A stretch of DNA of 63,768 bases, the filler included, from Choristocarpus tenellus KU-1152 (taxonomy: Eukaryota > Protista > Phaeophyceae), in the NCBI GenBank assembly GCA_964200185.2. It is 10 parts of 10 records of this genome, joined end to end, with 100 filler letters (N's around TTAATTAATTAA, not from the genome) between each part and the next. Parts side by side here need not be neighbours in the genome. Positions count along the whole stretch, not along the records: positions 1 to 14,604 come from CAXNAD020001153.1; positions 14,705 to 23,019 come from CAXNAD020004865.1; positions 23,120 to 25,823 come from CAXNAD020025480.1; positions 25,924 to 29,200 come from CAXNAD020021089.1; positions 29,301 to 36,952 come from CAXNAD020005811.1; positions 37,053 to 42,666 come from CAXNAD020010245.1; positions 42,767 to 53,663 come from CAXNAD020002642.1; positions 53,764 to 57,091 come from CAXNAD020020775.1; 2 more parts are not named here. One strand, 5' to 3'. Every line of letters starts with the position of its first letter. Within the stretch, counting starts at the first letter, position 1. The notes beneath the pieces were generated by a model. It was not told where the DNA came from, ran no database searches, and was given only the letters and a program-made list of their open reading frames with translations. Shown piece by piece: positions 1 through 63,768 of this stretch. The position numbers and the translations under genes are program-made.

Positions 1-2649
1 TTTGGCCCCCAAATGGACGCGGCTCTACCCTCTCTAAGATACTTTAGCTCCAGGGGGGATTGTGTTGTGAAGAGAAGAAAATTGTATTGGGCTGTTTTAC
101 ATTGCGTAAGGGATTTTGGTATGTACTATTGTCATGCCGAGAGAGGAGGGGAGAGATCGTCAATAGTACTAGGGAAACAAGCAATGAAGACCATAACAAT
201 TTTAACAATGATGTAGCCTATTGAGATTTATCCATGCAATCACCCTGCCCCTCTATCTCATCAAATTATTCGTATGATTATTACTATAAACATTAATATT
301 ATAGACAGAGATACCGCCTCTTCTTAGTGAGACCCCTCCCCCCCACCCCCCCCCCGCTCCCCCTCCTGTTCTTGTTTCCTCATGACTGCCTATTTCTTAG
401 GGTTAGGGTTACTGGAATGGTCCACATTGTCATACCTGCCTAAACTTGTAGTAGACAAAGTGGGTTGGGAAAATGAGTCTTGGTTCAAGGAGGCTGCTGA
501 TCGTTTGACTGGGGACAAACTGGTCCAGTTCTGTTTGCGTCAATGGTGGGCATGCCTAGAATTCTATGACTTGGAGTAGACGCCCATATTTTGTCGTTGT
601 TCCTAGTATAGAGTGTTCTTGAGTATGTTGTATCTGTTGGTTGAGCTAAGTGATAGAAATATAAGCGATGCCATTGTGATTTGGCTGGGAGATGCTACAG
701 ACCTTGGTGTTGTATTTCTGGTGCATACACATAACAAAGTACAATGTTGGCATAGTAAACTCAGTTCCATGGAGGTTCCTATGATGATTTGTTTTTGGCA
801 TTGATCCAAAAAATATTTAGATATCTTAATGCCTATGCTTTTGGAGGCACCATATATTTTTCATGGTGGCAAAGGACAATTCGTAACACACCTAGAGATA
901 ACACCACACAGGGCGTTCGGACTTGCTCTGTTCTGAAATAGGATAAATAGATAGGTGCATATCATCATTGACAAACAAAACTTCAACATTCTTCTCAGAA
1001 GGGAGCGATCATGTCTTCCTGCTGTTCTAACAGACAGTCAACACATTTTGGTGTGGCTACGACCTTGAGGGTAAGAGAGTGACCAGGATACTCTCTTCTA
1101 GAATCACGAGAACTGTCAGCTTTGAATATCCTCTTACCATGTTATGTATGACACACTGATACATAGAGCAGACAAGGCTATAGAGTTGTCATCAACCTGG
1201 GCTGGGCAATGAGATGTCATCACAGGCTAACATGTGGTGATTAAGGTATACTGCTGTATTGAAATGTGAGGGGTGGTAGGATTACTTCTTACAGTCCTAG
1301 TAGTTCACGACAGTGTCCAAATTCAGCTGGGTCAGATTGCTCAACCTGTCCTTATGTGGGAAACCTTTTCATGCTCCATTTCCTTGTAATCCAATACAAA
1401 TTAGATAGGAACTGACATAAAGGTCTCAAGACTTTCCAGAATGACATGCATACCACTATATATTAAGTAGACTTTCAAAAAGAGGTATGTTGTTTGTGTA
1501 CTCACCTAATTGCTCACTCCTACTACTGTACTCTTAGTATTCAAAGGTAATCGACTCCTATACAGGTGTCGCCCCTCTTGACAACATCTCTTCGAAATGT
1601 CATTGAACGTAAAGATGTATAGGTGGTTTTCATTTATTATGAGTATTATGTAAGCAATGCACCAAGTGTTTCATGTGCAAAATCAAATAGGTATGTTCAC
1701 ATCTCCTGGAGAAGAATACGGCTCTGAGGTGTATGCACTGAACGGAATACATGTGATCAATAACCTCCACTCTACTGCCCACCCTACCCAGCAGAACCAC
1801 CACGATTGCTACAAGTCTAAAGGACACAGAACACACCATCCAGGCTTAGAAGACACAAATTCCGTAGCCTGGATGCTCTCAACGAATCTCCTTGATCTTT
1901 CCAATAGATGATAGCTTCAGCTGAGTCTATTTTGATGCACAAGGTGCTATGCAACAAATAATGCTCAACCTCAGGACTGTTCTCCTACCACACTCGCTAC
2001 CAAACATACAAGAGTCATCTATTGTAGAAAATGCTTGTTCTTCATCCTTCCCTTTAACGTCTTCAGTCAGACAAATCAACCTATCAGTCTCAAACGACAA
2101 ATGTCTTACTGATGATGGGCTATACATCACTTCTGTCATAGATTATCTCACCAATACGGTCATTGCAATAGGGCCAAGAAACAAAGACTCCATCTACTCC
2201 AAATTCTTTCACCCGCAGCACATCACACACAATGAAAGAAGATCAACCACATGTTGCATCTGTCTGCCCTAAACAATCACGGATCAGCCTGCACATTGTA
2301 GCAATGCAACATCAAATACAATTCGAGAAGAAGCAATACACACACTCCTCAAGTATACACATACATCCTCAAGGTAGGGGACACTTTGATGAAAGATACA
2401 ACACTATACTACCAACAAAACGCAACAGCAGACCCTGCATGCATGGAATCATCATTTGTAACCAAATCACTATCCAAAGAAGAGAACAAGAGAGCCTAAC
2501 CCGAAGAAGGAAATATGTACTCTGCAAACACTGTCCGCCAACCTGTCAATGCCATCACCACTAGTGTTCAAGAAACATTGGCCTTCATTGTCAAATGGTT
2601 TCAAGAGATTGATTGTATGTGATTTTCAAAGATAAGTAAGCCACAAGGC

Positions 2650-5600
2650 TCAAATGTCAGGGGTGGAAGTACCGCCTGGACCCTCCCCAAACGCCCTGTG
2701 AGCCTCTCCCATATCCACCTCGTCCACCATAGCACTAGGGTCTGAGTTTTCATCCCAAGAACCTTCCTCAATACCTCCCCAACCTGCCATCCATTCACCC
2801 ATGGACGCCTCAAGAGCACCAACAGGCCACTGTTGTGACTTTAAGTCTACCCATTCCTGAATCTCCTCATTTTCTGAATTAGCATCCAAAGCCCAGGGGG
2901 GGAGTGCAACTGCAGCATTTGGGGAGACTATATTCCGCTCTCCACGTTCACAGGCAAACATGGTTTTGACATGCTCCACTTCATCATCCCGAATGTTCCT
3001 GCCAGAGGAAGCACCAAGGAAATAGAGTGTGTGAGGTGGTAGAAGGATGGGACCAAAGTGGATGGAACATATTGGTATGTGGATGAGCAGCAAAAATGCC
3101 AGATAAAACAACACACGACCCAATCTCAAAGAGTGAATAGGTCTCAAGAGATTGTATGCTAGATATGGAAAACCTTCTACACTTAAGAACACATGCGTGT
3201 GCCTCAACAGCCAGGGGTTTGGAAATAAAAGTCTCGAGAACTTTGAGACTTCATAAAGACTTCATAAAGACTTCATAAACAATAGAAATTCAAAATTTCG
3301 CAGCAACCAACACTTCCCAGGCCTCTCCTCTGGAATATTCACTACAAGTACCTCAACTACTTTGGTGAATGATGCCAATACTATAAAAAAAAAAAGCACC
3401 TTCGAATGAACGGAACAAACAAAAAATGCTACGAGCGATTGGAACACGCTTCTCACAATGCTCACAAAACATTCATCAATGAACACTTGTCCTGTGCATC
3501 TCTTCTTGTACATCAACACACACACAAATACTCCAAATATTTACCAATACAATAGCCCAGACCACACAGTAAGCCACTGCCTTCGAGTGTGTACTAACAG
3601 GGAACACCACAAGCAAGAGGCAAACAAGAATATCATAACTTTAACACACTTTTATTCAACTTAAGACCCTTTGTTCAACTCAACACCCAAGAAGGACATC
3701 TTACCCCCACTACCATGTCCCACCTAGTACTTGGAGTATGACTTCCTAAAGCCTAGGAGTCATGAAGATTGCATGAGTAGTAACAGCAGGTATGTATATT
3801 TAACCATTCAAGGCCGTTGAATCAACATGGAAGTAACGGAAAATTCAATACAAAAGAAAAAAGGAGGGTGTAACTTTCATCCCCCCATCATTTGTAAAGC
3901 GTCCTCACACCCTCCCAAGGAATTCGCTCACCGGAAAACATCATAAAGGGATCGGATGATAGGGCGACGGCTGTAGGCAGGCCGGGCTGTCTGAAACTCA
4001 TCAAACAGGTACATATCTCCTGCAGTATAATATTCCAACGCCTGGACACACCATCAACACAATCAATCATCACACAGCATCAGCACATACACAAAGGTCA
4101 ACATATTTAGGTCACCTTGATGAGGGTGTATGAAGATAAGAGTTAGGGTTAGGGTTTCATGTAGTCGAAGTGGTCCTGACTGAAGGTGATCGAATTGCTA
4201 CCGTGAGGCTGTGACCAGCTAAGATAGTACTAAGGAGTACCTAGTATCTATTTCAGAATATCACAACTCACTATAAATCTGCCACAAAATTTACAGAGCG
4301 TACCATTTTCCTCTTTGAGTCTTGTTGAGACTTGTAACAGCATTCACATCTGCACACAGTCAGTTCAAACTCTAGTCATTACCAAACAATCACAATCACC
4401 ACCAATCCGCTTCACAACCTTGAGCCATGTGCACAACAGCGGTTGCAGGCTAAAGAGGCTGTTACCTCCAGGAATTTTGAGGTTTCGAACCCAATCACTA
4501 CCAGGCTTCTTTCTCGTAGAAATATAGTGCTGGATAGTCCAAGTCCACACAACAATCAGTTGACATTGTACACCAATAGTAATAAATACTACTATCATCT
4601 TGTCCGTCTGCTGCTATACCACAAGCACACCACACGAAGAATATGGTGGTTGTAAGGTGGAATTGCTAAGAAAGTGGAGATGGTTCCAGCAAAAGATGTG
4701 AAGGGGTACAACTAGAAACAGATCAAGAGCAAGTACATAGTTTGAGAAGTGAAGTAGTAAAACAGTGTGTAGTGCCTATGGCCACAGGTTGGGATAGTCC
4801 CCAGACTAGAGTGAAGATAATAATCATAAGCAGAGAAAAATAGACCTCTACCTTGGGCGGGTTGCCTGACCAATCCAGGAAATGTCAATGGTTTCTGCTG
4901 GCTACAAATATTGGGGTTGGTAGGACAGTATAATGCCAATCGATCATTGAAAGGATAATGTGTATCTGAAATGATGACAACGGTTTCATCCACACAGGAC
5001 AGTAACAGTGGTCACAACTTATCAGTATATCACAATACTTCAATACTCAAACTGAAGATATACAATTGGTAAAAATAGCATCAAAGACCAGAATCTACAT
5101 ACAACCATGAAGTACTCACTCATCGCATATGATCCAACAGCATCAATATATTATCTTGATATTAAAATTAGAATAACCCAACAATCACACTTCAGCCCTG
5201 TTGCACACCCTCACACCTCCTCCTCTTACACCCTTCACCTGCTTAGTTGGAGGCAGGCTTTTGAGCAGGTCCTTGTTGGCCTCAATGAACTCGGAGTAGG
5301 TGTCCACAGCATGACTTTCAAGGAGCTCGCTGAAGTTGTATGCCAAGAAAGGTGAAATGAGATACCCCTGAAGATTAAAAAATATAATAGTAAGAAAATG
5401 CAGTAGTGGTCAGCTTCTGAATTCAAATACTTGGTATATCCCACATGATCAAACATATGTAACCAAATGTTGCTATCTGTACCCAACCTCTATACCTCAC
5501 TCCTCCACTCACTGTCTCATCGCACCATCAATCAACACTCCTGGCAACAGCATTCCTTGGGAGCTGTATATGGTGTAGATATTTTGACATCATTGTCTCT

Positions 5601-8600
5601 ATGACACTACAACTATATCTTTGGGTTAGGGTTAGGGTTAGGGTTTGTCAAAATAATACGAATAATAATTGATATAAAGAACACGGTATAACAATAGCTA
5701 AGAAAAAACCCCAAAAATATCAGCATGTCACTGGCAGCTCCAATTAATGAGGGAGGAGGGAGGGGATCAGATACATATCACAAACTGACCATTCTTGTAT
5801 AAAATTCTATTAATAGCAATGCTTCTAAAAGGTTCAAAAGCACCAAATAGGCACCAACAACGCATTTATACTATCCTATGTATATTATACTATACTATGT
5901 AATTGACAGCAAACCTATAGAGAAACAATAAAAATGAACTATTTATTTCTTATTTCAAGGGTCATTTCATCTCTTCAAGGATTTCATTAGCCTCTTCAAA
6001 AATAAAAATGAGATAACAATGACAACCAGTCAGCCAGAGTTGAAACCAAAGCAATGCACAGATTCCACCCATCATTAAGTTTATGAGCTAAAGCCACTTG
6101 CAACTCTTTCGTAAGTAAAAAATATTGCTACTGTCATCATAAAATATTGCTACAACTTTAACCTGGAAAATTACAACCCCTGAACCTCCAATCTACAATA
6201 AAAATTAACATAGTGTTCAAATATTTAAAACCGTTGTCTCCCCCTCCTCCTCCCCCTCCCCATCAAACCTATCCCACTAAACTGTCCAAGTGTTTGTACT
6301 TACAAGATTAAGCACCCAATAGTACAAGATTGCTGCATGCCTGGCCATGAACCTGTCAGACCAACGCTCATCACCTCCAAGGGACTCCATTATCTTGAGA
6401 TGTTGCAGCTCATTCCATTCCTTCCAAACAAGCACACACACGTTCATCAAGTTTTGTTAGCATTATTATTATTATAATTGGTATACTTCAAGAACAAGAT
6501 AGAGTTAGGGTATAAAAACTAGGGTCGGTTGCATTGATTGGGTTAGGGTTAGGGATTAATGTCTCGCTGGGAATTGCATTCTTGGTCCCAAGTAACTACA
6601 TGTGGAACACTATATCAATTTCATTGTGATTAGCATGGTTGGCATCAAACTCACAGGGGTATGTACATGTATGTTTGAAATGTTGAATGCATACATACAC
6701 ATAGATATGTATGATCTACACATAGATATGTGTGATCAAGTAAAGAGGTACTCAAAATTGACACTAAGTATGTGGTGCTGTACCTGTGCCAACCTCAACT
6801 GCCCGAATAGCTCAATAGTCTCCTCAATAATAAATAATAAATAATAAATAATAAATAATAAATAACACATCCTTACTGATTACAGCCCTTGCACCCTTTG
6901 ATCATGTTACAGTACCTTTCCACGGTCCAGAATAGGAATAGGAATAGGAATAGAAATAGGAATAGGAATAGGAATAGGACCTCCCCTAGTGACCTGCCTC
7001 CCTACTCCAGTCTTCTCTTCTGGTAGGGTTAGGGTCTGGTATGGACGCGCAAACACCACAAAAATCTCTTTTTTCCCAACCTGCAGCACCTGAATCTCTT
7101 CAACCGTGTTGCTTGACTACATTTGTCGAAAGAAGGTACAGGCCTACAGCGGTACACAACTAGGGTACACTGACTTTCTTTGTCAGGTAGGACATTCATT
7201 GCGAGGGTATCTGTCTCCTTTGAGGACAACCATCATTTCATTTCCTGCACATTTTTTTTCTAACACATAGCCCCGCCACTACTCTTCCTACAAACAGAGA
7301 CTCAAACCCTAACCCTAACCTACAAACAGAGACTCAAACCTTAACCCTAACCCTACATCTCCTCAATGTCCTTCAATCACAAATCACTCACTGGGTGGAA
7401 ACATAACCCTAACCCTAACCCTTCCCTATCCCCCCCAACAAAAGACAGTCAAATAGGAGAGTTGGAGTAAAAGTAACAAATATATTACCCAACCCTTTGC
7501 CAAAAATAACTATCTTCCACAAACACTGCAATGGGCATGAAAGCTGCCATAGAAATATCCCAACCATATGCTTGTAACCCCTAAAAAAATATACGTATGT
7601 ACAAATAGTGATTCATCGCTCTCTAGCAAATCCCAAACAACCAATCAAATTCAGCAGGACCAGTACACTTGCCACAAAAAAAAACAGGGCAACTGATAAC
7701 ATCCCCATATCCCTCAACTATTACAACCAAACAACTCATTTTCAACAAAATAATAGTATCGTCATAGCATTGTAACTAGGACAGCTGTCAGCTAATAGTT
7801 ACTTGATATTTGATATTTACAAGTGAGCATGCTCAGACAAGGTGACAAGGTTTCATACACAAGATACGTTTGAGTGTATGTATGATGTATGATGTATGAT
7901 GTAGGATGTGAGTTGGTCTGTGCTCACCTCGGCAAAATGTACCTTGCGAACCTCTGACCCAGCTGTCCACCACCCCAAGGTCTCATACAGGTGGAGCATT
8001 GAAAGGTATGAGAAATAAGGCACTCTGTCTCACAGTTCATCCACGTTTGATGCACACACATTTATGTGTACACACATTTATGTGTCATGGCCAAAGGCAA
8101 ACCAGTTCAAGAGAGCAAGAAGTAGGCAGTCATGGGGAAACAAGAACAGGAGGGGGAGCTTGGGGGGGGGGAGGGGGAGGGGTCTCACTAAGAAGAGGCA
8201 GTATCTCTATGTCGACACCCAAAGCATCAGTTGCAGTTAGTCTCCACTCTATAATATTAATGCTTATAGTAATAATACTACTACCAATTTGGTGAGAGAG
8301 AGTGGTAGGGTGATTGTATTGATGAATCTCAATAGGCTGAATGAAAGGATGGCACAATAGGCTACAATATTGTTAAAATTATTATGGCCATCATTGCTTG
8401 TTTCAGTAGTACCATTGATGACCTCTCCCCTCCTTTTCTCTTGACATGATAATAGTACATAATACCAAAATCCCTTACATAATGTAAACCATCCCAATAC
8501 AATTTTCTCCTATTCAGAACCCTAATCAAAGTTGAGAAATTGAACCATCTGACATCTATTTTTGAGGTTTTGTCCTCAACATCTTGAAATGGAGCTCTAA

Positions 8601-8772
8601 TGTGATCAACACACTCATGACATACTTAGGGTTAGGGTTATCTGAAAGCAAACAACACCTGGTACAAAACAAACAAACGTCCACAACTAAAGAAAAGTCT
8701 ATTCAATGACAAATACCATCACAACACTCTCTTCTGTGCTGGTTACACATGACATAGATAGTCGCATCACAG

Positions 8773-8808
<36 letters not shown>

Positions 8809-11800
8809 TATATATATATATATATATTCATATACACGCCTCCATATTGTCTGAAACACCTGCAGTATGAACACCCGCAATAAATCGGTTTTCCTTAATA
8901 TAGATGAAGTTTCGTGCTATGCCATCTTTATGAGTACTTGGGCCATTGACTAAGTGTCTACTACATTGACTAAGTGTCTACTACAACATTGACTAAGTGT
9001 CTACTACAACATTGACTAAGTGTCTACTACAACATTGACTAAGTGTCTACTACATCGACTAAGTGTCTACTACAACATTGACTAAGTGTCTACTACAACA
9101 TTGACTAAGTGTCTACTACAACATTGACTAAGTGTCTACTACAACATTGACTAAGTGTCTACTACAACATTGACTAAGTGTCTACTACATTGACTAAGTG
9201 TCTACTACATTGACTAAGTGTCTACAACATTGACTGAGAATGATCATATTCTTCCCTCCGTTGTTCCTGTCAAACAGCGAAAAGCTAGTGACTCAATGTA
9301 CAAATGGACAAAAGATTAAACAGAAAGGAGGAAGTATTGAGAGATGGAAGAACAACAGAAACTGTAGGTGGACTGACCGAAGAGGTCTGAGGTCTCACTG
9401 ACAACAAATAAAACAAACAAAAAATCGATTGCCAACAGACTGATTGGCTACAAGGTAGAGGATTCCACAGTGAGTAGACACATACACCATACTAACATAC
9501 ATAACCAATCTTCTGAGCAGTGCTGGAGAACATCATTGTTGCTTAAGCCCCACCTCCCCCCACCCCTCCAACTCAGAATAACTGTGCATTGAATTTTATC
9601 TCCCCAAAATAGTGCAGCCCAAAGACAAAGGCATCTAACATTCCACTAAACACACAATAAAATTACTCACAAGAACATAACAGTCACCTTCCATCCTCCA
9701 TCGCTATTTTCAAGGCACTACTAATCCTTTCCCTTTCCAAACACATACAAAGAGTCATTCCATAGCAAAGAGGTGAAGCCTGATTACTCCCTCACTCCCT
9801 CCTTTCCATACCCAAAGCGGCACTTCATATTGGCATCCATAATTCCTCTGCTACACATTATGAACAGGCAATCAGCTACCCCTAACTCCAACCCCAACCC
9901 CAACCCTAACCCTAACCCAATTCACCTCTACACCAGAACAGTACCTTGCAACTGTCTCCAAGAACCAGAAGCGCTGTATCGGTCGGTCCTCAAACACAAA
10001 ATCTGAGTACAGAAGAGTAATGCCAGATATGCAGGGGACATACAAAGGGTTAGGGCTTACTAGGTGATACGGTTTGATCATGAAAGAAACTGTTCACTGT
10101 GTCTGTTGGGTGTTGCCGTACACCTTCAGGTGTGTACCTTATATTGTCATACGAACCCACCCAACCCTCCAAATTGGGGAAAGATTTTCTCATCTCTGAT
10201 ATATTGTCAAAACAGTGGATCAACACATTGTGGAACCCTAACCCTACAAATAGTCAATCCCATTACCATTATCATTAATGAAACCCTAACCCCAATTTGT
10301 TGAAATGTTACTGCATGATATTCGGCATGTGTGAAAGTGTGAGGTGTGCCTGAGTGTCAATGAACAGAGCAATGACCAACAATCATATCTTGGTTGTGAG
10401 TGAGAAGTCAATCCCTAATGGTACTACAGTCTCTATTGCCGTGAAAGAAGATTCTTCCACCAGGTCACTACCACTCTCACTGTCATTTCAAAACTTACCA
10501 GTTCCTACTTGCAATATCACATTCAAGTGGAACTAGCAACAGAATGCTTAACTGGTCCAAACTTTGTTCCTGCCACAATTTCACAATCATCACCATGAAA
10601 TAAATACACACATATCAACACTAAGTGCCTTCATCATGCCCTCCTCTCTCTGCATCTCTAATTGGATAACACTTCTAACTCGAACAACATAATAATAAAT
10701 ATAAAAATGAAAAATGAGAAAGTGAATACCTGCAAAATCTGTAGTAATTCTTACATCCCCACTGATGGGTCCTAGTACAACATATGTGATCGACTTTCTT
10801 CAAAGCAATAACAAAAAATCAAACTATAGTGAAGGTAGTAGTATAAAATAGTAGACAGTAATAATAACCACTTAGAGTACAAATCTATATATTCTATGTC
10901 CATCATGGAAAAAAAATGATAACAATCCTAACCCTAACCCTAGCCACCCTATCCTCACACCACTAATACAATGAGCACAAGCAACCGCAACTGCTCTTAG
11001 TGCCTCCACAATCTTATCAAACCCTTACCTTACACCTCTCAGCACGATTGCCACTCCAATCACGACCACAGAATCCCTAGGCCAACCAAACAACTGTCAA
11101 ATCTAACCCTAACCCTAACCTTGAGCAGGCAGGAACAGTACCAAAAAACTGAGAAATATATTTATACACATAACACACATATATGTTTATATAGAGATGT
11201 GAGGCGTCCCTACCGGCAACACTTTTCCCCCTTTAACTAAAGGTAACATGAAAGCTTGTCTTTTCCTTCATTCTACAAACAAAAATATGTTCCCAAAGAG
11301 AATACATACTCCTCTATCCATTAAGACTGTATTGTTATGGTTTTTGAGAGTAACTTTTTCAAATGTGAGATTCATAAATAACAAATAATATAGTTCGAAA
11401 AGCCAACAACTTTGGCTTGCACATAGATATCTTCAAAATGTTTTTTCATTTCGAAATGGTGGAGAAACCGTCTACTGAACACTTTTTGGGGGGGGTTTTT
11501 TCGGGGAAATGTCAGATTTAGGCAAAAAACAGCAAAATTGGCCAAAAGTGACCGGAAATTGTGGTTGATCGACCATAATGTTCTCAATGAGACCTCCGAT
11601 GAAGACACGGTTACTTTTGTTGGATTCCTTGGCGATTTTTGCATTGAAGGCATTATTCTTCACTCTCATTTTCTCCTGAGGGTGTGTTCTGGATCACTTG
11701 ATCCCTGTTGATATAGACGTTTACAACTTGGCCACAACTTGGTGGTTTCAGGTATTGATAGAAAATGAGAGTGAAGAATAATGCCTTCAATGCAAAAATC

Positions 11801-14704: not shown

Positions 14705-14919
14705 CCAAGCCCCACAAATGGACAAACAAGGGAAACATTCGTACCCTCTAAGATAGTTTCACTCAGGTTCGTTCATACACTCAAGATGCAATTTACAGAT
14801 TACATCATTTGAGAGAACCCAATACTTCAACATGGTCCTCTTCTCTTCCACTTGTTCACCTCACCCCTCTATTCAAATCGCATTGTACCTTTTGCTTTTC
14901 TTGTGTGGGGGGTGTCAAG

Positions 14920-15737: not shown

Positions 15738-16151
15738 ATGGCACTGTACTGTATTTGGTCAATGTAGCAGTAGACAAGACAAGTGTGCCTAGTTTTTCAC
15801 TATCACACTCATCAATCACCCACACACGTGGACACAACAGCCTTGACAAAGGCTATCAACCTCTTTATAAATGTAGTGCTTAAAAAGTACCAACTCACTA
15901 ATGATTTCTCTTCCAGGCTGATTTGCATGTATGTGTATTGATCTGTGGTGAAATTATGATCCACACACATCACCTTTCCCATCCTCCCCCCAAGCATGCT
16001 CTCTTTATACTTCCTTTGCCTCACCCTGTATATGGACATGATAGACACAATAGACTAGGGTTTTGTTCAATAATTATATAAGCATGGACAGGTGTTGAAC
16101 ATCCCATGTGCCTCACACTTAGTGTGCTCTAATATTCCAATCATCACTGGA

Positions 16152-40711: not shown

Positions 40712-41003
40712 GACCCTGACTATTTACAGATCCAGAGGTTGGTGAAGAGTACAACATTTGACAGTAATAGTAGTAGTACTGGTAGAAATAGCAGTAGTAT
40801 CCACAACATTTTGACATTTTGATTAAACCACCAATTTCCATTTCTATTGTAAGACTGTAACTGCCTGGTGGTGAAGATATCAATAATTTATAGACACATG
40901 TGAGTTCCACTCCACTCACTACGACAGAAGTAGCTCCCAAGTCCAGGGATTAACGTGAGGGAGGTATCCACGACACGGGCAAGGACGCCCAGTAGTGCAT
41001 GGA

Positions 41004-42587: not shown

Positions 42588-42623
<36 letters not shown>

Positions 42624-53588: not shown

Positions 53589-53763
53589 GTAAGATGTGGA
53601 TGGGGGAGAGGCTGGGGGGCGGGGGGTTACTGATGGTTCTAGGTTTTGACTATACTTGCCTACNNNNNNNNNNNNNNNNNNNNNNNNNNNNNNNNNNNNN
53701 NNNNNNNTTAATTAATTAANNNNNNNNNNNNNNNNNNNNNNNNNNNNNNNNNNNNNNNNNNNN

Positions 53764-54589
53764 CTGAAGCTCTGCCTTCTGGTCAGCCGTGGGAACGATA
53801 CCCACGAAGATGGAATCGCACTTCCCCGATCCATCTTGGTTGGTGAAGCCTAAGGTGTCCGTGGGGCCTATCATTACCACCTTCTCACATAGTAGTAAGA
53901 GAGAGGAGGGAAGAAATGGGGTGGGATACTGTTTTGGAGGATATTCGCATGAAATGGACAACTTTGGTGAAGATAGGTCATTCCACTTGGTCTGAAATCT
54001 GCATGTTGAGCAAGTCAACGGCATTTGCGCATTGAAGACTATTGGTCAGGTGCTCGAACCGAAGGAAGAGGGTGCAACATTACACTGGAATCAACAATAT
54101 AGACCTGAGAGGCAGACCAGAAGCCCTTGTACCACTGAGACATGACGTAGGTCTCCGCCACTCCCCCAACATCTGGGATCTGTCAACATATTTGATCAAA
54201 GTATATGGGTTGCTGAGTTGGAGGCAGTCGGAAAGTTCACACAGAACACAATCAAATAGTGATAAGCTGGTAAGCTGCTCTCTTCAGCATGCAACTCAAG
54301 GTGGTATGTTGGAATGTTGTTGACAATAATTTACGCCGTACTGTCTCTTCTGGCGAACTGATCCAACTCCCCTGGGGTAAACTATTATATTAACTGGTAT
54401 CTAACTTCGGCTGAGACACCCAACAACTGTTGTGGGTGTAACCTCGACCTTATCCACAACTCAGGGAGTTGTCCTCACCAGATCGCTAGCTGCGAGGATG
54501 CACGGCTGCAGGTCCAAAGACACCTGTGCAAGCACAGGGGATAACAGACCAGCGGCCATGGCGACCATCCACGAAACACGAGTCATCAT
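53764..54589 (-). CDS. Possible secreted hypothetical protein, 5' exons
   Basis: MMTRVSWMVAMAAGLLSPVLAQVSLDLQPCILAASDL followed by a GTGAG donor. Further short candidate exons follow (GSWISSPEET; IPDVGGVAETYVMSQWYKGFW; ...VVMIGPTDTLGFTNQDGSGKCDSIFVGIVPT). Splicing is not fully resolved. Confidence 0.35.
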
Positions 54590-57263
54590 GGTTGACTATA
54601 TCAATTTAGTACTCTTCTTCCTGTCGTTCTACGAGGCTGTTGAGGGTCGAATAGGGGTAATTTGACGCCTTTCTGCTTGAGAGGTTACCACGACGGATAA
54701 AAATCAACTTTCAGATATAGACTGGATCGAATACTCTGTAGTATGTTTGCTGTGTGTGAGTTAGCAATTTATAGTTTTGAAGTCTGGAAAAGAATAGTTT
54801 GATGATGTGTTATTTTGTGTAACTAGGATAGCAATCGGAATTACTTCCAGTACGTGCTGCCATGTCCCTTCCTCCTTGTACTAAATACTTTTTGAAAAAA
54901 TGATTCTATTACCTACGCAACCCTGGGTATGGTTCTACTATGAAGTAGGTAGAGATAGTTATCAACTTTTTTTTCATATTTTGGTATAGTATCAGACCTC
55001 TCCGCCTAGTAGTAGAGTTTTTTTCTTCCTGGCTGTAGGATTGACCTTTAAATTCTGGACGATGTCTTGATGTCATGTGTAGTACAAGAGTAATGAGTGT
55101 GCGAGGTGGGCGTCATTAAATTCCATTCGAAAAGCGAGATGGGTACGACCATTCAGTGCCACTTCACTAAACTATGGTCCATGACGGTATTGAACAGGAT
55201 TACCATGACTATGCGGTCTTTCGGTTCTGTGTGTATCCCTTTCAAGCTTCTGTTCACCCACCTTCCTCCCGAGTAATGAACAGAACGACTGACTGTTGAA
55301 CATACACCTACCGTGAATCAATTGCCCGACATGCCTTCTGAAAATTGAAACTCATCTTGCAGTAACCTTGACTTTTATTGTGTTCAAGATAATTCCTGAT
55401 CGTACACGAGAAAATTAGACGATGTTTTCTGGGCGGAGAAAAAGAAGAAAATGTAACGAGGATGGGCGAAAGGTTGAAAATGGATGGCTCAAACGAAGAT
55501 ATAGTAGCTGAGAAAGGGTGAGGTTTAGGTGGCAAGGTTAGGAAGAGGATGGACAGAAGAAAAAAAGACAGAGTCAAAGTTTCGAGAAAAATGACTAGGG
55601 GAACACGCTCAAGGCAAATACTGACCAATCTTCCGGGCAGGGGAGGAGGGGAGAGTGTCCGGCACCAAACGTGGAGGTGTGTCCTCAGCAGATGAAACGG
55701 CATGAGCAAGCTTCCTGGGGAGTGGTGATGAATTGACAAGAGTCAGGCAAAATCGTGTAGGGTGGTATCTGGTGAGAACTGGGCGTTGGGAACTGGTTAT
55801 TGTCGATCAAATTAGCAGAGCTAGACCTACATAGTGTAGGCTGGTATTTTTATGTGATCCATGGTGAAAGTGATAGTTGAGGACCAAGTGCGGTGCTAAG
55901 GTTCATACACAAGGATACACAAGGATAGGTTCCTAGTCAGCTCTAAGCGGACAGTTATAGCTTCTGCCAATACTGGTCGCAAATGCTAATGGAGTTATAA
56001 TTGGAGGACTCTTTGATGATGTGGTAATAACTCTAGGGATAGGTACGTTCGCGTGGAATCCTGATCAAGCGAATAGTCGTAGCTTATATTGCTCCAGACA
56101 CAAACTTGGTTATTCCTTAGCATGCATGACGAAACAGACAGAATAGTCAAATTGTAGTTTAATGACTGATTTTAAAACCAGTGAAAGTCACAATCGGGGA
56201 GGATGTTAGATCTATATTGATAACAGATTGTGGCGTTCCAGTCGCCAACATTGTTATACTTTGGGCAATTGTGATGAAATGGAAAGGTCAGGGCTCATCG
56301 TAGGGTGATATTTAGTGTGATACTATGTGAACGAATAGTTGGAGGACCTAGAATAAATACTAGGATTGGCAACTAGGCATGGATACACTTATTGTTGAGT
56401 GTCCTGCTTAAAACGTCAACCTGTAGTTCTTACGCCGCTCCTGTCTCAAAACTGAGATGTTTTAGGGCATCTATGATGAAATCAAGAGGTTAGGTCACAT
56501 AATACGGTGTTGGCTTGTTGAATAACAGTAAAAGTCATAACTCGGGATCGAACATCGATGTGATTAGTTGTAGGTATTGTCGTTCTTGTCACAACTGTTA
56601 CCACTCATTAGCATCTATGATGGAATTGACGGATTAGGGCACATTGTAAGGGTGGTAACGAGTTGGATATTCCGTAAAACTCGTAACTAGTAGGACTCAG
56701 CGGGGTAGTAGGGTTAGAACGTAAGGATATATATATACGCATATTCGTAGTTATGCTAAGTGATAGTAGAAGTCTGTGCCATTCTCGTTGCAATCATTTC
56801 TCCCCAAATTTTGAGGAAATACTATCCCACTTGGGCACCCAATTGCTGTAACTATAACAACATGCTGTCACGATGCCATATACTTAAGCAGTACATTCTA
56901 GACGAATTAATAGTTGGCATTAATGCGTGTACCCTCCTTTGATATGCCACAGTCTTGATATTTAACTTACCCTTCAAAAGAGGAAGTACGATGACAGTGC
57001 CAGCATACAGAGTGCATTGAAACTTTAATCAGTTGGTGGTATTTGGCCACAGGGTTGTCAAGTGTTGACCCGAAGTATCTGGGAGGGGGGGNNNNNNNNN
57101 NNNNNNNNNNNNNNNNNNNNNNNNNNNNNNNNNNNTTAATTAATTAANNNNNNNNNNNNNNNNNNNNNNNNNNNNNNNNNNNNNNNNNNNNCCCTTTTCC
57201 TGGTTTTGGTCCAAATGGACACCCTGGTGTAGACCCCTCCCCCCCCCCCAGATACTTTGGGTC

Positions 57264-58720
57264 AGAGGCATCATCTTAAAAGCATATTTGTCTCTGGACG
57301 TGGCAAAAGCAGTTTTATCAATGTCATCCTCAGCAACAGGGATTTGCCAATACGCACTCTGAATATCACAAACGGTGATGAATTTTGCACCCCCAACATA
57401 TCTCAGGCATAGGCCAAGTCTGTCAAACCAGGTGTTTGTTAACAGTTGACCTATACTCTACACAAAATCGTGGGGAGCCATCAGATTTGGGCACAATGGT
57501 AACAGGACTACCCCAAGGGCTGGCACGTTATTCAATGATGTCTTGCTCTTCTATAATAGTAACACATGAGCCAATTACTTGTTGAATACGGGGGTTTGCT
57601 CTGTATGGGTTCCTATCAACAGGCTTGGTACCGGGCTCTATAGGAATTTCTGCCTCAGCTAGAGTACATCTGCCCAGTTCTGCTGCTTTCAACGAAAATA
57701 CCGATCTATAATAGGCACAGAGGTCTAAAAGTTGAGACCCTTGTGACTGATTGAGGGAGGTATCTTTGAACGCATTTGTCTTACTGAAGGCTTGATGTAA
57801 CTCCTCTCTAGCTTTATTGTACGGTGCAGAATCGGTATTTAGAGCACCAACAGTGATTAGAATCTGATCAAAAATCGGGGTAAGTGACCTATCACAAGAT
57901 GCTTCTTGATACGGACCCTTCGAGCTGTTGGGTTTGCCATTTGAACCAATACTGATCTAATACTTGGTGACCAAGTACTGAGAGTGCGAGCAGCTACGAT
58001 ACGATTCCATGGGTGTGTAGGTTCAACGGTTTGATCTACAGCAGGCATAGAATGTATGACTTGCTCCACTACAACTGCAGTATCAAGCGACGGGCTAGCA
58101 TCAGTTGTGCAATGTATGATGATTTCATGACCTGGTGGTATATTATACTGTTTATGTACACGAACGGGTACAGGGTCAAAACCATGTCGCACACCCACCA
58201 CAGAGCACAAATGAGTGGTACTTGTATCAAGTACTTGTTGTGTGGGGCTCCTTGTCATGTGATGTCTTGCTGGAGTGGTACACAAACTGTTGTGGAACGA
58301 GAGACATTGTTCTTGCCAGTCAAGGATTGCACTGAAGGCCTTCATAATACAATTATTAAGCAGAATATTATGGGGACCAAGTTGGGGAATCACTAAAGCT
58401 TCAACTGGTAATGTAGTGTCACTAAGAGTAAGTGCAAAACGAATAAATCCACGAATAGGCAATGGCGAGTCGTTTGCCGCACCTTGGTGTTTATTGCACC
58501 AGGTGGGACAGGATGCACATCAAAACGTTCTGTTACAGCGTGCCCCAGAACTCACCTCCACAGGATGTATAACTCAAATCCAACGACCTTAAAACGACGT
58601 TATGGGAACGTTGCCCTTGGCAACAGTTTGTTGGGTGTCAGACTGCCGTTTCTCTCGATGCTCCACTCAGTGCTTAGCTCAAAGCTCAACTCAATGTTGT
58701 GTTCAAGATAAAAAAAAATG
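57264..58720 (-). mobile_element. Ty3/gypsy LTR retrotransposon pol relic (post-protease linker + RT N-half)
   Basis: The minus strand reads EIPIEPGTKPVDRNPYRANP...IE*RASPWGSPVTIVPKSDGSPRFCVEYR...FITVCDIQSAYWQIPVAEDDIDKTAFAT...FKMMP, with stops. ORF 57857-58462 resembles the protease C-terminus/linker. RT is truncated at a MITE end (57263). Confidence 0.9.
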
Positions 58721-59224
58721 AATAAGAGGGGTAAAGGATTTTGACCAAAAGCCCTCTTATTATTTTCTTCATCCACCCAATTTCTTTGGCCTTCTATGCA
58801 ACTGCTCTATACACGATCCAATCATAAACCAATATTCTGCAACTTCGTAGGATCTTTGACATTTTCTTCTGTAATGTTACGTCTGCATTACGAATCTTAC
58901 TCTATATCTTCTACAAAATCAGCATTTAGTCTGTAAGGCTACCTATGTGTTATTAATATTGCATATTGTTCGCACTTGTTAGAACGTGAGCAACAATGCT
59001 CGCACTATTTGTTTATCACAAATGTTTGTGTTTGCTAAAACATGAGAAGAAATGCTCGCGCTATTCTTGTACAACAAATGCTCGCATTTTGTTTGAACAC
59101 AAGAAGAAATGCTCGGACTATTCGCCCGTAACAATTCCTGTTAAGGGTGATTGCGAACTAATCTTCTGAAATACATGGTACATCACTTGCTCCGTCAATA
59201 GTTAAGTCATTTTCCTCTTGTTCT

Positions 59225-60028
59225 TCAATGGTACCAGATACATGGACCCATTGTGATGAAAACGATGGAGGACAAACAGGTGGTCTGGCTCCTCATCTCC
59301 TGGTGCCTCTCCTCCCGGCTAGGCTCTCTTGCGAGGGTCACTCCCCCCCTCCTGGCACGCTCCACCATGGAGCAAGTAGATAAAACCTCCTTATGGACAC
59401 TAGAGAGGATAATGGAGGTGGAAGACTCAACAGAGGATACAGATTTCTTTGAAGGAGGGTGCAATAATGGGTATCTCCGCCTAGAGACCCGCCAACAAGT
59501 AGAGGCACAGATGCCCACAAGTGCGGGGGGTCTGGGACTCTCCTCTATGAAACACCACCAACATGCGGCTTTCGTAAGGTCACAAGTGGCAACTCTCCCC
59601 ACCCTCCTCGCAAGGCAGCAAGGGCCTGAGTACTTCTCGCAAGCTGTCTGCACGAGCCCCACAATACAGGCCTTAGGATTGTCCATTCACTCCCTCCTTT
59701 CCACAGGAATCCCCTCAGAAGACCTTGCAGAAATCATTGGCCAAGACTGAGTATCCTGGGGGGAAACAACACCCCCTGCACCTGCCCCAGAGGTACACAT
59801 CCTAGCTGCTCATGACGCCAGGATCACAAGGAGGGCTCAGCACGAGACCACACGCCCCCTAACAAGATCCGTTTTGACTCATTCAGGATACATCTGGCCG
59901 GCGTTCCAAGTGAGGCACACCAATGGAGGGAAAGCTCCTCATTGGCCCTAGTGTGCCACCATGGCCAGTGTGGACAAGGAGCAAACGCCTGGGCCTCGAC
60001 GCAACCGCTGGAACCAGTAAGCCACATC
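59225..60028 (+). mobile_element. Non-LTR retrotransposon relic (RT thumb region)
   Basis: ORF 59253-59750 has LLISWCLSSRLGSLARVTPP and QMPTSAGGLGLSS...HAAF. This is the PxxxGGLG thumb motif typical of restriction-like-endonuclease non-LTR clades such as CRE. Confidence 0.7.
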
Positions 60029-60351
60029 NNNNNNNNNNNNNNNNNNNNNNNNNNNNNNNNNNNNNNNNNNNNTTAATTAATTAANNNNNNNNNNNNNNNN
60101 NNNNNNNNNNNNNNNNNNNNNNNNNNNNCATGAAAGAACACTGAATTTACATCACATCATTCTTGACTGAGAGATCAATGACCTCTGTTACAACAGAATA
60201 AATACATTGGTGCTTTGCAGCACAATCACACCTATACATAACATAGACTAAGCATATTACTCATCGATACTTTGCAACGCCATGATTCCTGATCGCTCGT
60301 AGTCTACGCATTTTTCTTACATGTACGATGCATTTGATTCAGGTTTCAACA

Positions 60352-60580
60352 TTAGAGACGCTCGCATGGCGTCTCTCCTCCGAGGTATTCGTGTGACATG
60401 CCTCCAGTTTTGAAGGCGACGTCCGTGATAGCAAAGAACCAGTAATCGTCAACCAGCCTTGCCCCAATGAGTTGATTTATCGCCCTTTCGGCGATCCCAT
60501 TGTTTTGTGATGTTCTAGGTGGAGATTTCCTCCATCGGGTACCGTTGTTCGCCAGCATCCTTTGGAACTTCACCGACCTC
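60352..60580 (-). mobile_element. Ty1/copia integrase fragment
   Basis: SPPRTSQNNGIAERAINQL...YWFFAI...ETPCERL matches the copia integrase core C-terminus (TPQQNGxAER...FW...TPYE). Confidence 0.75.
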
Positions 60581-60859
60581 CCAAGGTAAATTGTACAGGT
60601 TATGAACCTTAGTAGTATGAAGAAAAGGAACAGGTGATAGGCCTCAACGACATGAAGAAGTTGCCCAACTGGACTGGACCACTAGCACGACCAGTGGAGA
60701 CTTTGACACCATGGAGATTATCTCTGGTGGTTTATACCAGCAAAAGGGTCTATAAGTCATTCTGCGGCGAAAATACGTTGTCCTGAACTCACAGACACTA
60801 ACGGAACGGGAACGAACATGGCACTGGAACTACGAAAGAGGAATGAATGAAGGATGGGC

Positions 60860-61005
60860 GGAGGACAAGATTCCCGTGTAGCTCAAAACAAAGGACGCAC
60901 AGGGGACGAGATCCCCGTGCAGCTCAATGGAGGGTGCGCGGAGGACAAGATCCCCGTGCAGCTCAACGGAGGATGCTTGGAGGATTAGATGCCCGTGCAG
61001 CTTAT
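60860..61005. repeat. ~39-bp tandem repeat (GATCCCCGTGCAGCTCAA...) x4, possibly the 3' region of an LTR retroelement
   Basis: The repeats are visible. A decayed 'WTGP' reading upstream hints at a gypsy integrase C-terminus, but this is weak. Confidence 0.7.
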
Positions 61006-61891
61006 CAGAAGACCCGATATAAGCTACAGGAACCTGAAACGGGAAGTATATTTTTATTGCTTGCTATATTATTATTTTGTGCTACCCACATAAGTCAACG
61101 GTAATAATGTCAAAGTAGTTGAATGCAGACTAAAAACCCATACATAAATAATCCCATTCATAATCCGGATGTACTATCTCATTAGTTACATCTCTCATAC
61201 ACAAAATAAGGTACACCTCACTATTGTCTTCTTTTGCACAACACTAACGTTGTGGATGTGGATACACCAAGTGGTGCAGGTCTAGGTCCTTGACTAACTC
61301 GACTGACCGCCCGAGCATTCACATAATATCCAATGGACTATTACACACTAACGTTTTGACACGAAATCTCAACGAATGGGGGGACAGGCAGGAAGAATGA
61401 CAAGTTGTGCATTGAAGAGCTTACAAGGCATAGAGAAAAGGAAATCAGAGGGGAAGGGGAATGGCTAAGTAATGCAGGCATCAAGAGTGTGCAAAGATGG
61501 GGCGGTGGAAAAGGGGACTGGCGGGAAAAAAGACCAAGAAAACATCCTCATGGATGAGGAGGGAATAGATTCATCAAGGAAACGTGAAATGGATGGGGGA
61601 TAAAGGGCATAAAACAACTTAGGAGCCTTCTGGCAATGGAGGGAGAAGATAGTATTTCTCCCAAAAAAATGGGGTAGGGAAGACATGAGAGGTTAGGGGT
61701 AGGGATATAGACAGAAAAAAATGGACAATTTGTAAATAAGAAGAAAGGGAAAATATAACGAAGAAATCAAGAAGACAAACTTGAATCAATATTTGAGGGA
61801 AACTGATGAGGCACATAGTACGCCTCTACGTGTGATGGGAAGCGACTGTTCTTATGCTTCCAATGTACTGGTACGAAAATTCGTACTATCT

Positions 61892-62144
61892 GGGTGAACG
61901 TATCTTAGAGGGTACGAGTTTTGCCCTGTTTGTTCATTTGGGGCTTGGCTTCCCATGGGGTTTTTGTGATATTTTTCCTACTCCGAAACGAGTAGGTAAT
62001 ATGTATATGTTATGAAATGGTGTGTCCGGAACAAGGATACTGACAATTCCTAACAAATTCGACGGATAAAATTACGTGGAAATCGCAACATTGGATTTCG
62101 GCCCCCGAATGGACGCGGCCCTACCCTCTAAGATACTTTGGCTC
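61892..62144. mobile_element. MITE subfamily B, full copy
   Basis: Inverted termini GGGTGAACGTATCTTAGAGGGTA / TACCCTCTAAGATACTTTGGCTC, flanked by ATCT on both sides. End fragments of the same family occur at 1-50 and 14705-14764. Confidence 0.75.
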
Positions 62145-62424
62145 ATCTTGAAGTTTTGTTTGTCAGCTTTGACTCTTTTTGCTACATATTCTTACTCTAT
62201 AGATGTGCTGACTGGTAGTCACAAAGTGCAAGCATAGTGCCATGTTTCCTCTATTGACTTGTAGGAACCCGTCGCCATGGAATTTCGTAAGACCCATCAC
62301 ATGCGGAGATAGTTCCTGAGAAGTGGAGAGCCACAAGAAACCAATCGATGAGCAGACCAAAGACCACTACTCTCTCCTTTCAGGAAAGAGAAAAAAAACA
62401 GGCGACTCATGGTAGGTCTTTCAT

Positions 62425-62603
62425 GACCCAAAGTATCTTGTGTGGGGGGGGTCTGTACAAGGGTGTTTATTTGGGCCATAACCAGGAAAAGTGCACGTAC
62501 ATTATCCATCCAATGTATGCAACCAAAACACCCAAAAATCGCGACGTGAAAAACATTTGGCCCCAAATGGGCAGCCGCCACCCCCCCCCAGATACTTCGA
62601 GCC
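62425..62603. mobile_element. MITE subfamily A (poly-G/poly-C TIRs), full copy
   Basis: Termini GACCCAAAGTATCT..G-run and C-run-CAGATACTTCGAGCC, flanked by TCAT on both sides. Homologous along its length to 62831-63016. Confidence 0.8.
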
Positions 62604-62830
62604 TCATGTAACAGTGCCAAGTTCACCCATTTAGCAAGTTGGGATGGATGATGTGGCCTGGATATTCAAGAATGAAGGCGGTAGACAACTACCTGATGAA
62701 TAGTCAAGCCTACATCAATGAATCATGGATCACTGACTTTGATCGTGTTGAAAGTGTATGTGACTACTGAGCATAGACAAGACTGCCAGGACCATGGAAA
62801 GGGAGGGTATCTGCCTCAAAACCGAATAGT

Positions 62831-63016
62831 GACCCGAAGTGTCTGGGGGGGGGGGAGAGGGGGGTCTACACCAAGGTGTCCATATGGACCAAAACCAGGA
62901 AATGTGCACTTTTATTCTCCATCCAACGTATGCAAAAACCAAATCACCAAAAAATCGCGACATGAAAAAATTGACCCCAAATGGACAGCCGCCACCCCCC
63001 CCAGATACTTTGAGCC
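62831..63016. mobile_element. MITE subfamily A, full copy
   Basis: Same termini and interior as 62425-62603, flanked by AGT on both sides. Partial copies or ends occur at contig edges: 25725-25823, 57067-57091, 57192-57263, 63744-63768, plus a related end at 42574-42666. Confidence 0.8.
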
Positions 63017-63768
63017 AGTAATAATAAAAAGTCAACGACTTCAATATGTCAAATCTCAGATGTGAAGTTCATAGTGGGTTTATTAAACCGCCATATATAA
63101 ACGTTGACCGTAACACATCTGGGTTCTCCTGCAGCTATTATCGTTGGGGAGCAGATAACGATGTGCATCCCTGTGATGTATAATTGCACTTATTACAAAG
63201 CCGTGACAGAGAGCTTCTGAGGGAGCTTTTGTTTTCTTATGTACCTCAGTCTCCATTCCATGGGAATAAGTTTATCACCCGAATCAACATTAAATTGCAT
63301 GTTTTTTGGTATATCTCAACGAAGTATAGTGTACTTCAAAGTCCTAACTGCTTGTCATCGGTTAGTAAATACTGTTCACACAGATCTCCAATCCTAATAT
63401 TAATGACCACCAAAAATTACCTTGCACCTTCACTTATCATCATCCTCTGTCAATCTGTCTTTCTTGTTGCAGCACTCCATGTACACATATCTATCGTGCA
63501 CTCTGGTCTTTACAGTATCATACAACATCTGCAAATGTCAGTTGGCATGGAAAATAAAGGGTTGTAGTAACCAAGAGGAATACACACAGTAGTTGCATTA
63601 TAAGGATCCCCAGAAACAGAAGGGAAAAACAAGTTTTTAGTATACATATTCAAGCAAAAGGTTTCGTTAGTAATTTGTGTGTAGTGATTTTTTCGTCATC
63701 ACCTCTTTTGTGGTGGCGCCTTCATTTTGGGGTTCTTCTATTTGACCCAAAGTATCTGGGAGGGGGGG

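What the first reader, a model, noticed from the sequence alone, without database searches (positions are those of the whole stretch)
1..63768. CpG-island-like architecture: CpG-depleted gene bodies versus CpG-rich gene 5' ends, implying gene-body 5mC in a brown-alga-like genome
Seen in sequence: by hand count, AlaRS intron 46021-47100 has 5 CpG in 1080 bp, whereas mostly intronic 19141-19620 near the leuD start has 27 in 480 bp (about 12-fold denser). By eye, the CpG-rich zones coincide with gene starts (~18.9-21.9 kb, ~31-33.3 kb, ~37-42.6 kb, ~53.8-57 kb). Internal PTOX and AlaRS introns are CpG-poor and TpG/CpA-rich. Knowledge (from memory): 5mC deamination produces this pattern; Ectocarpus essentially lacks 5mC and DNMT1, with DNMT1 retained only in early-diverging lineages. 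Inference: this organism has, or had, heritable CpG methylation over gene bodies with protected promoters, a vertebrate-like layout unusual for this group.
Basis: partly seen in the sequence, partly recalled or inferred. Interest (0 to 1): 0.78.

Follow-up and report, generated by a model that had tools for sequence, protein, structure and literature searches.

The report
Methylation scars in early brown-algal lineage
In this alga, which branches just outside the familiar brown seaweeds, the DNA pair CG is about 2.3 times scarcer deep inside genes than near gene starts, likely the mutational scar of inherited CG methylation that spares promoters, a layout already measured in the sister alga Schizocladia.

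Summary
The hand counts are exact and the CpG loss is specific: window CpG o/e 0.43, GpC 0.79, TpG/CpA 1.28. The window is ten contigs joined by artificial linkers, so the 12-fold contrast compares extremes from different contigs; class averages differ 2.3-fold. Within contigs the gradient holds: pooled over four genes o/e is 0.68 in the first kb after the start codon and 0.45 in the second; gene interiors average 0.27. GC content does not explain it, GpC is flat, and synonymous codon junctions show the same loss. One CpG-rich zone is a head-to-head gene pair confirmed by spliced contigs. But gene starts (0.62) are no richer than transposon or gene-less contigs (0.54-0.61), the 53.8-57 kb zone has no detectable gene, and the richest kilobase lies inside a gene. 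So this is depleted gene interiors rather than vertebrate-grade islands. An AlaRS tree puts the organism sister to Fucales+Ectocarpales, where DNMT1 is reported (Discosporangiales, Schizocladia). Schizocladia's 80% CG methylation with unmethylated promoters is published, so this is a likely new member of a known kind. Methylation itself and DNMT1 were not testable here.

The parts
2854..12975 (-). PTOX/AOX-family gene interior (7 exons found, start not located); CpG o/e 0.30
   Evidence: tblastn with P0148 places exons at 12980-12714, 10003-9944, 8026-7928, 6423-6307, 5400-5236, 4044-3934, 3051-2854; AOX hit E 0.0027, below cut-off; o/e (3300-11299 plus 12130-14049)
11300..12129 (.). 830-bp palindromic insert in a PTOX intron, likely young; CpG o/e 0.69 against 0.30 around it
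   Evidence: self-blastn; arms 93% identical; ratio 2.3, p 0.0016
14770..18559 (-). leuD distal introns, exons and 3' transcribed region; CpG o/e 0.31
   Evidence: spliced joints in run X3; Aconitase_C E 1.4e-5
19055..21354 (.). CpG-retaining zone over a head-to-head gene pair (leuD ATG 20060 minus; predicted plastid-targeted gene ATG 20316 plus); the only gene start passing 500 bp/GC 0.5/o/e 0.6
   Evidence: one 965-nt X3 contig carries a CT..AC and a GT..AG joint; ATGs; island scan; o/e 0.64 within 1.5 kb
30579..33579 (+). 5' zone of a predicted secreted modular-protein gene (ATG 32079, inferred from signal peptide and splice phase); CpG o/e 0.61
   Evidence: no RNA laid here
33580..36952 (+). 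interior of the same gene; CpG o/e 0.33
   Evidence: ratio to its start 1.83, p 0.0009
37053..39210 (-). GT8 gene interior that breaks the rule: CpG o/e 0.79 (1.07 in 37053-38050); insert or second promoter, unresolved
39211..42211 (-). 5' zone of a GT8 (glycogenin-like) gene, ATG 40711; CpG o/e 0.61
   Evidence: Glyco_transf_8 E 0.0036 on exon 38371-38487, below cut-off
42767..53663 (+). AlaRS mid-gene contig: 9 GT-AG exons (321 aa), 8 introns at CpG o/e 0.10-0.24; whole contig 0.21
23120..29200 (.). comparison class: gene-less contig C3 (0.54) and transposon-like contig C4 (0.49-0.50)
   Evidence: C4 read as DIRS-like from a recalled recombinase motif, no Pfam hit
53764..63768 (.). comparison class: gene-less C8 (0.66), retroelement-fragment C9 (0.49) and C10 (0.61)
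   Evidence: RVT_1 E 9.5e-5 in C9, below cut-off; C10 integrase-like motif recalled, no relevant Pfam hit

Best explanation
CpG is specifically lost from long-resident DNA, most strongly deep inside genes, and kept within about 1-1.5 kb of start codons, likely because a DNMT1-type enzyme maintains CG methylation broadly while active promoters stay unmethylated, as in Schizocladia ischiensis. Shown: the CpG deficit, its gradient from gene starts, its independence of GC, the matching TpG/CpA excess on both strands, and the tree position. Inferred: methylated C deaminates to T in cells that pass on the genome; promoter chromatin (H3K4me3 in Schizocladia, from PMC13076208) keeps the enzyme off; transposon-derived contigs keep more CpG because they are younger and have not finished decaying. 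Untested: the DNMT1 gene and any methylation call.
For: Gene interiors o/e 0.27 [0.24-0.30] over 26.4 kb vs starts 0.62 [0.55-0.69] over 9.2 kb, ratio 2.29, GpC 0.83 vs 0.86; GC-matched windows 0.24 vs 0.58. All 4 genes with a located start fall from the first to the second kb (0.83 to 0.40, 0.61 to 0.52, 0.55 to 0.44, 0.72 to 0.43); 3 of 4 keep falling to 0.23-0.33. leuD introns 5' to 3': 0.81, 0.86, 0.47, 0.28, 0.25, 0.36 on one contig (joints). Codon-junction C|G: 10 seen vs 47.6 expected in internal PTOX+AlaRS exons, 24 vs 42 in 5' exons (p 0.006), with T|G and C|A in excess and G|C normal. Sense-strand TpG 1.28 and CpA 1.36 in interiors (symmetric); CAG/CTG 0.92-0.94 in every class, so no CHG signal. 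Age effect: young palindromic insert 0.69 in a 0.30 intron; old triple repeat in C3 0.22 vs 0.62 for the rest of C3; 2.85 kb downstream of the PTOX stop 0.35. Tree: sister to Fucales+Ectocarpales, 98/94 and 96/96; placement with Vaucheria/Chrysoparadoxa rejected p-AU 0.017, inside Ectocarpales p-AU 9e-6. DNMT1 reported in Discosporangium, Schizocladia, Chrysoparadoxa (bioRxiv 2024.02.19.579948); 80% 5mCG with demethylated promoters in Schizocladia.
Against: All 5 non-genic or transposon contigs sit at 0.49-0.66, level with gene starts, which global methylation explains only through youth; old degenerate repeats in C8 keep 0.77 (12 CpG). GT8 interior rises to 0.83-1.04 at 2-3.7 kb. The 255 bp between the two head-to-head ATGs is only 0.47 (7 CpG). 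Starts themselves stay depleted relative to GpC. Only 5-6 genes; class borders were drawn after seeing the profile, so p-values are optimistic. No Schizocladia, Discosporangiales, Ishigeales or Dictyotales sequence was available for the tree.
Confidence: 0.55

Rival explanations
1. Mosaic, gene-body-targeted CG methylation as in invertebrates: transcribed gene interiors are heavily methylated, while promoters, transposons and intergenic DNA are all lightly methylated.
For: Two tiers fit the data almost fully: dispersion falls from 2.41 to 1.06 with class alone, and starts equal non-genic DNA. 5 of 5 non-genic contigs are at 0.49-0.66 although their retroelement frames are already broken. Old repeats in C8 keep CpG.
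Against: Old repeat in C3 (0.22) and DNA downstream of PTOX (0.35) are depleted, though either could be intronic. Schizocladia shows only a modest gene-body rise and lacks DNMT3.
Confidence: 0.27
2. Fossil signature: methylation shaped the genome and has since been lost, as in crown brown algae; the CpG deficit has not yet relaxed.
For: Composition cannot date the process; the repeat-pair test (17 of 55 CpG sites vs 82 of 577 CpH sites differ by C/T, odds ratio 2.7) is also near the roughly 2-fold expected from the TpG excess alone (my calculation). DNMT1 was lost early in brown algae.
Against: o/e down to 0.10-0.24 in freely evolving introns and sharp start-linked gradients would be expected to blur after a long loss (inference).
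Confidence: 0.1
3. A methylation-free cause: GC-biased conversion near promoters, transcription-linked mutation or selection against CpG.
For: CpG o/e correlates with GC across windows (rho 0.40); starts are GC-richer (0.466 vs 0.410); CC/GG excess and TA deficit show other biases.
Against: GC term vanishes with class and GC-matched windows keep the gap; loss is strand-symmetric and is repaid by TpG/CpA at synonymous junctions.
Confidence: 0.06
4. Artefact of concatenating unrelated contigs and picking extreme stretches.
For: Ten contigs, two named zones equal whole contigs; 12-fold shrinks to 2.3-fold.
Against: Gradients hold within single contigs C2 (p 5e-6) and C5 (p 9e-4); C2 is matched without differences by one 7.8-kb contig of run X1.
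Confidence: 0.02

Closest known systems
Schizocladia ischiensis 5mCG landscape (single DNMT1; PMC13076208)
   Same: Neighbouring or same lineage; CG-context signal; promoter regions spared; gene bodies at least modestly raised.
   Different: There it is measured methylation (about 80% genome-wide); here only sequence decay. Here non-genic contigs are much less depleted than gene interiors; that paper's main text gives no CpG-depletion analysis. The organism may be a true early brown alga, a group the paper's text does not mention.
Vertebrate CpG islands in a globally methylated genome
   Same: CpG retained and GC raised around start codons, including a head-to-head pair; deep depletion (about 0.2) in long introns.
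   Different: Start zones reach only o/e 0.6 and GC 0.44-0.51, fail Takai-Jones, and do not stand above non-genic contigs.
Invertebrate/plant gene-body (mosaic) methylation (CpG o/e types of PMC6336885)
   Same: Depleted interiors of conserved genes, spared 5' ends, less-depleted non-genic DNA.
   Different: Those systems usually have DNMT3 and scale with expression; neither could be tested, and Schizocladia lacks DNMT3.
Crown brown algae (Ectocarpus: no 5mC, no DNMT1)
   Same: Long-intron gene structure, head-to-head gene pairs with short spacers, closest named AlaRS relatives.
   Different: No methylation reported there; no genomic control sequence could be fetched to compare CpG o/e.

Membership tests
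Schizocladia-type DNMT1 5mCG landscape | Lineage at or beside the base of Phaeophyceae | tested here: met
   AlaRS tree and AU tests; species not resolved
Schizocladia-type DNMT1 5mCG landscape | DNMT1 orthologue in the genome | not testable with these tools
   no genome held; none in the window's tested ORFs
Schizocladia-type DNMT1 5mCG landscape | About 80% genome-wide 5mCG | not testable with these tools
   only assembled contigs of 3 runs
Schizocladia-type DNMT1 5mCG landscape | Unmethylated promoter regions | tested here: inconclusive
   sequence proxy agrees at 3 of 3 start zones; methylation not measured
Schizocladia-type DNMT1 5mCG landscape | CG context dominant over CHG/CHH | tested here: met
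   by sequence proxy: CG 0.26-0.62, CAG/CTG 0.92-0.94 in all classes
Schizocladia-type DNMT1 5mCG landscape | Transposons and intergenic DNA also methylated | tested here: inconclusive
   0.49-0.66 in 5 contigs, but 0.22 and 0.35 in two older or downstream stretches
Vertebrate-type CpG islands | 500 bp or more, GC 55% or more, o/e 0.65 or more (Takai-Jones thresholds, recalled) | tested here: not met
   0 stretches
Vertebrate-type CpG islands | GC 50% or more and o/e 0.6 or more (Gardiner-Garden thresholds, recalled) | tested here: inconclusive
   at 500 bp: 3 stretches, 1 at a gene start and 2 in transposon contigs; at 200 bp: 27 scattered stretches
Vertebrate-type CpG islands | Promoters stand above a uniformly depleted non-genic background | tested here: not met
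   starts vs non-genic ratio 1.14 and 1.01, not significant
Mosaic gene-body methylation | Depleted gene interiors with spared 5' ends | tested here: met
   4 of 5 interiors at 0.21-0.33; GT8 exception 0.79
Mosaic gene-body methylation | Methylation scales with expression | not testable with these tools
   contig depth cannot rank genes
DNMT5 nucleosome-linker methylation | CpG spacing periodic at nucleosome scale (recalled) | tested here: not met
   pair-distance counts in 20-bp bins from 20 to 420 bp show no peak (523-646)

The most novel reading that the evidence does not exclude
The organism is a true early-diverging brown alga that still runs heritable CG methylation, and it targets gene bodies rather than the whole genome, without DNMT3: an independently evolved invertebrate-style mosaic methylome inside a class described as having lost DNA methylation altogether.
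Probability: 0.2. Interest if true: 0.75.

Novelty: new member of a known kind. Interest (0 to 1): 0.5.

Why it matters
Two recent studies differ on when brown algae lost DNA methylation: one finds DNMT1 kept in Discosporangium (bioRxiv 2024.02.19.579948), the other reports DNMTs absent across the clade and methylation only in Schizocladia (PMC13076208). A CpG-decay profile is a free read-out of inherited methylation. If this genome is an early brown alga, it moves the loss inside the class and shows the retained DNMT1 was active; computing the same profile across public brown algal genomes would map the loss without new experiments. If it is Schizocladia itself, the finding only adds that decay is strongest in gene interiors.

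Tried and rejected
No whole genome is held, so no genome-wide metaplot or DNMT search. Polymorphism test: runs X1-X3 show no other letters in single-copy DNA of C2. Repeat-pair substitution test (11 pairs): odds ratio 2.7, p 0.003, rejected as evidence for ongoing hypermutation because the existing TpG excess alone predicts about 2. Control from a crown brown alga: metagenome scan with Ectocarpus AlaRS returned 80 loci, none with the long-intron spread of a brown algal gene (scan covered 4 of 64 parts). No RNA holder is listed on record; X3 is read as RNA only from its GT-AG joints. No read cover was obtained for C6, so the 37-38 kb peak stays open. PTOX exon search found nothing at E 0.001; the representative search gave 19 hits; of 10 looked up, 9 were unnamed and 1 was Phaeothamnion at 40%, so species-level placement failed. 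PTOX start codon not located; a hydrophobic ORF at 13734 lies in low-complexity DNA and was not accepted. Pfam: 0 of 141 short ORFs from C1, C3-C6 and C8-C10 hit. No tRNA in 37641-63768. Nucleosome periodicity absent. Earlier scan notes: nothing.
Full report
Observation. The two hand counts are exact: 5 CpG in 46021-47100 and 27 in 19141-19620. The window as a whole has CpG o/e 0.43, GpC 0.79 and TpG/CpA 1.28. After masking 15 tandem arrays, CpG counts in 112 windows of 500 bp are overdispersed (2.47, p 8e-16) while GpC counts are not (0.88), and CpG o/e runs opposite to TpG+CpA o/e (rho -0.32). Positions across linkers are not neighbours, two of the four named zones are whole contigs, and the 12-fold contrast compares extremes on different contigs.

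Anatomy. C1 (1-14604) holds seven exons of a PTOX/AOX-family gene, start not found. C2 (14705-23019) holds leuD on the minus strand (ATG 20060) head to head with a predicted plastid-targeted gene on the plus strand (ATG 20316). Run X3, unlabelled but spliced at GT-AG joints, confirms five leuD introns and two plus-strand introns, and one of its contigs spans both genes' 5' ends; run X1 matches 14739-22514 without a difference. C5 holds a predicted secreted modular protein (ATG 32079, inferred), C6 the 5' part of a GT8 gene (ATG 40711), C7 nine mid-gene exons of AlaRS. C4, C9 and C10 carry broken retroelement frames (one weak RVT_1 hit; the other two read from recalled motifs). C3 and C8 gave no Pfam hit.

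Class test. CpG o/e is 0.27 [0.24-0.30] in gene interiors more than 1.5 kb from a start (PTOX 0.30, leuD 0.31, C5 gene 0.33, AlaRS 0.21), 0.62 [0.55-0.69] within 1.5 kb of a start (0.64, 0.61, 0.61), 0.54 in transposon contigs and 0.61 in gene-less contigs; GpC is 0.81-0.86 throughout. The GT8 interior (0.79) was kept apart as an exception and is not in the 0.27. In a Poisson model on 94 of the 112 windows, class removes the GC effect (-0.04+-0.10) and nearly all overdispersion (1.06). By distance from the ATG, all four genes drop from the first to the second kilobase (pooled 0.68 to 0.45); three continue to 0.35, 0.32 and 0.25, while GT8 rebounds to 0.83-1.04. leuD introns fall 0.81, 0.86, 0.47, 0.28, 0.25, 0.36. 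At codon junctions C|G is 10 against 47.6 expected in internal exons and 24 against 42 in 5' exons, with T|G and C|A in excess and G|C normal. The loss is symmetric between strands and CAG/CTG is near expectation in every class. Class borders were set after seeing the profile and rest on five or six genes, so the p-values overstate certainty.

What this means. The signature is the one established for 5mC deamination in CG context. The spared zone near starts is real, but it is not raised above non-genic DNA: what stands out is the depleted gene interior. No stretch meets Takai-Jones thresholds, and of three 500-bp Gardiner-Garden stretches one is the leuD pair and two lie in transposon contigs. 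Two readings remain. Under broad methylation with protected promoters, transposon contigs keep CpG because they are young; the young palindromic insert (0.69 in a 0.30 intron), the old triple repeat in C3 (0.22) and the DNA behind the PTOX stop (0.35) fit this. Under gene-body-targeted methylation non-genic DNA is simply less methylated; five of five non-genic contigs at 0.49-0.66 and old repeats in C8 at 0.77 fit that. The repeat-pair test cannot tell present from past methylation.

Lineage. The AlaRS exon's named hits are brown algae and Vaucheria. On 321 residues the window is sister to Fucales plus Ectocarpales (98/94 with 32 rows, 96/96 with 17 rows) behind a long crown stem; grouping it with Vaucheria and Chrysoparadoxa is rejected at p-AU 0.017 and nesting it with Ectocarpales at 9e-6. 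Rows were chosen from the 131 AlaRS hits held (named ochrophytes, top unnamed hits, diatom outgroups); the rest were left out. No Schizocladia, Discosporangiales, Ishigeales or Dictyotales row was available. The long stem fits Discosporangiales or Schizocladia (split from brown algae about 458 Mya) better than lineages within the 236-Mya radiation; this is a one-gene inference. The fragmented contigs lean against the long-read Schizocladia assembly but do not exclude that species.

What is known. PMC13076208 (passages, section 6, and parts of the peer-review file read; figures, the spreadsheet and one scanned file not seen) reports one DNMT1, about 80% 5mCG, demethylated CpG-like islands at promoters with H3K4me3/H3K9ac, and a modest gene-body rise in Schizocladia ischiensis, and no DNMT1/3/5 in surveyed brown algae; its main text does not name Discosporangium or Choristocarpus, but its unseen Fig. 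1a may list them. bioRxiv 2024.02.19.579948 (passages and section 89; supplements not seen, including the DNMT and GC tables) finds DNMT1 in Discosporangium mesarthrocarpum, Schizocladia and Chrysoparadoxa; PMC12459048 repeats this (passages). PMC6336885 (passages) classes a gene o/e mode below 0.69 as high methylation; PMC9998398 (passages) covers DNMT5 in other ochrophytes. Searches for Discosporangium+methylation+CpG and CpG depletion+brown alga+Ectocarpus+stramenopile listed no paper with all terms; Schizocladia+methylation+CpG gave only the paper above and its preprint (listing only); the 13 Choristocarpus papers listed show no methylome by title.

Verdict. A real, CpG-specific, start-anchored gradient that most likely records DNMT1-type CG methylation. 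The layout is known from the sister lineage, so it is a likely new member of a known kind. Its value lies in the chance that this is a true brown alga and in the open question of global versus gene-body targeting. Interest 0.5.

Noticed in passing
14605-14704 and eight further linkers: The window is ten draft contigs of 2.7-14.6 kb joined by identical 100-base N linkers; adjacency across them is artificial.
   Followed up: yes
14705-14765; relatives at 61890-61948 and near several contig ends (1-60, 57194-57264, 62424-62491, 62830-62902, 63743-63768): A roughly 60-bp element with summed contig depth about 380,000 against 17 for single-copy DNA in run X1 (not a copy number). It seems to be a very abundant short repeat that breaks the assembly.
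   Followed up: partly
19941-20924: leuD and a predicted plastid-targeted gene of no Pfam-tested family start 255 bp apart on opposite strands, and their transcripts merge into one X3 contig, suggesting overlapping 5' ends.
   Followed up: partly
14975-15527: A plus-strand GT..AG joint in X3 points to a third transcript converging on the leuD 3' end.
   Followed up: no
11300-12129: An 830-bp near-perfect palindrome (arms 93% identical) inserted in a PTOX intron, like a foldback element.
   Followed up: partly
32079-36952: Predicted secreted protein built of a repeated three-exon, cysteine-bearing module with no credible Pfam match.
   Followed up: no
37053-38050: The CpG-richest kilobase (o/e 1.07, GC 0.43) lies inside the GT8 gene and shows several CCAAT-like motifs by eye; insert or hidden promoter.
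   Followed up: partly
27110-29200: Broken gag-like frames and a tyrosine-recombinase-like frame (motif recalled, no Pfam hit) suggest a DIRS-type element.
   Followed up: no
14050-14604 and 44543-44908: Two 7-mer tandem arrays (79 and 52 copies) made largely of TG/CA steps sit in introns; masked for all class counts.
   Followed up: no
whole window: CCG/CGG is depleted beyond dinucleotide expectation (0.79 overall; 0.69-0.84 by class), possibly a flanking-base preference.
   Followed up: partly
introns of C1, C6 and C7 (e.g. 5620-5645, 12165-12180, 52020-52045): Short telomere-like TTAGGG tracts are scattered through introns (seen).
   Followed up: no
43119-53588: All eight AlaRS introns between the nine exons found are phase 0.
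   Followed up: no
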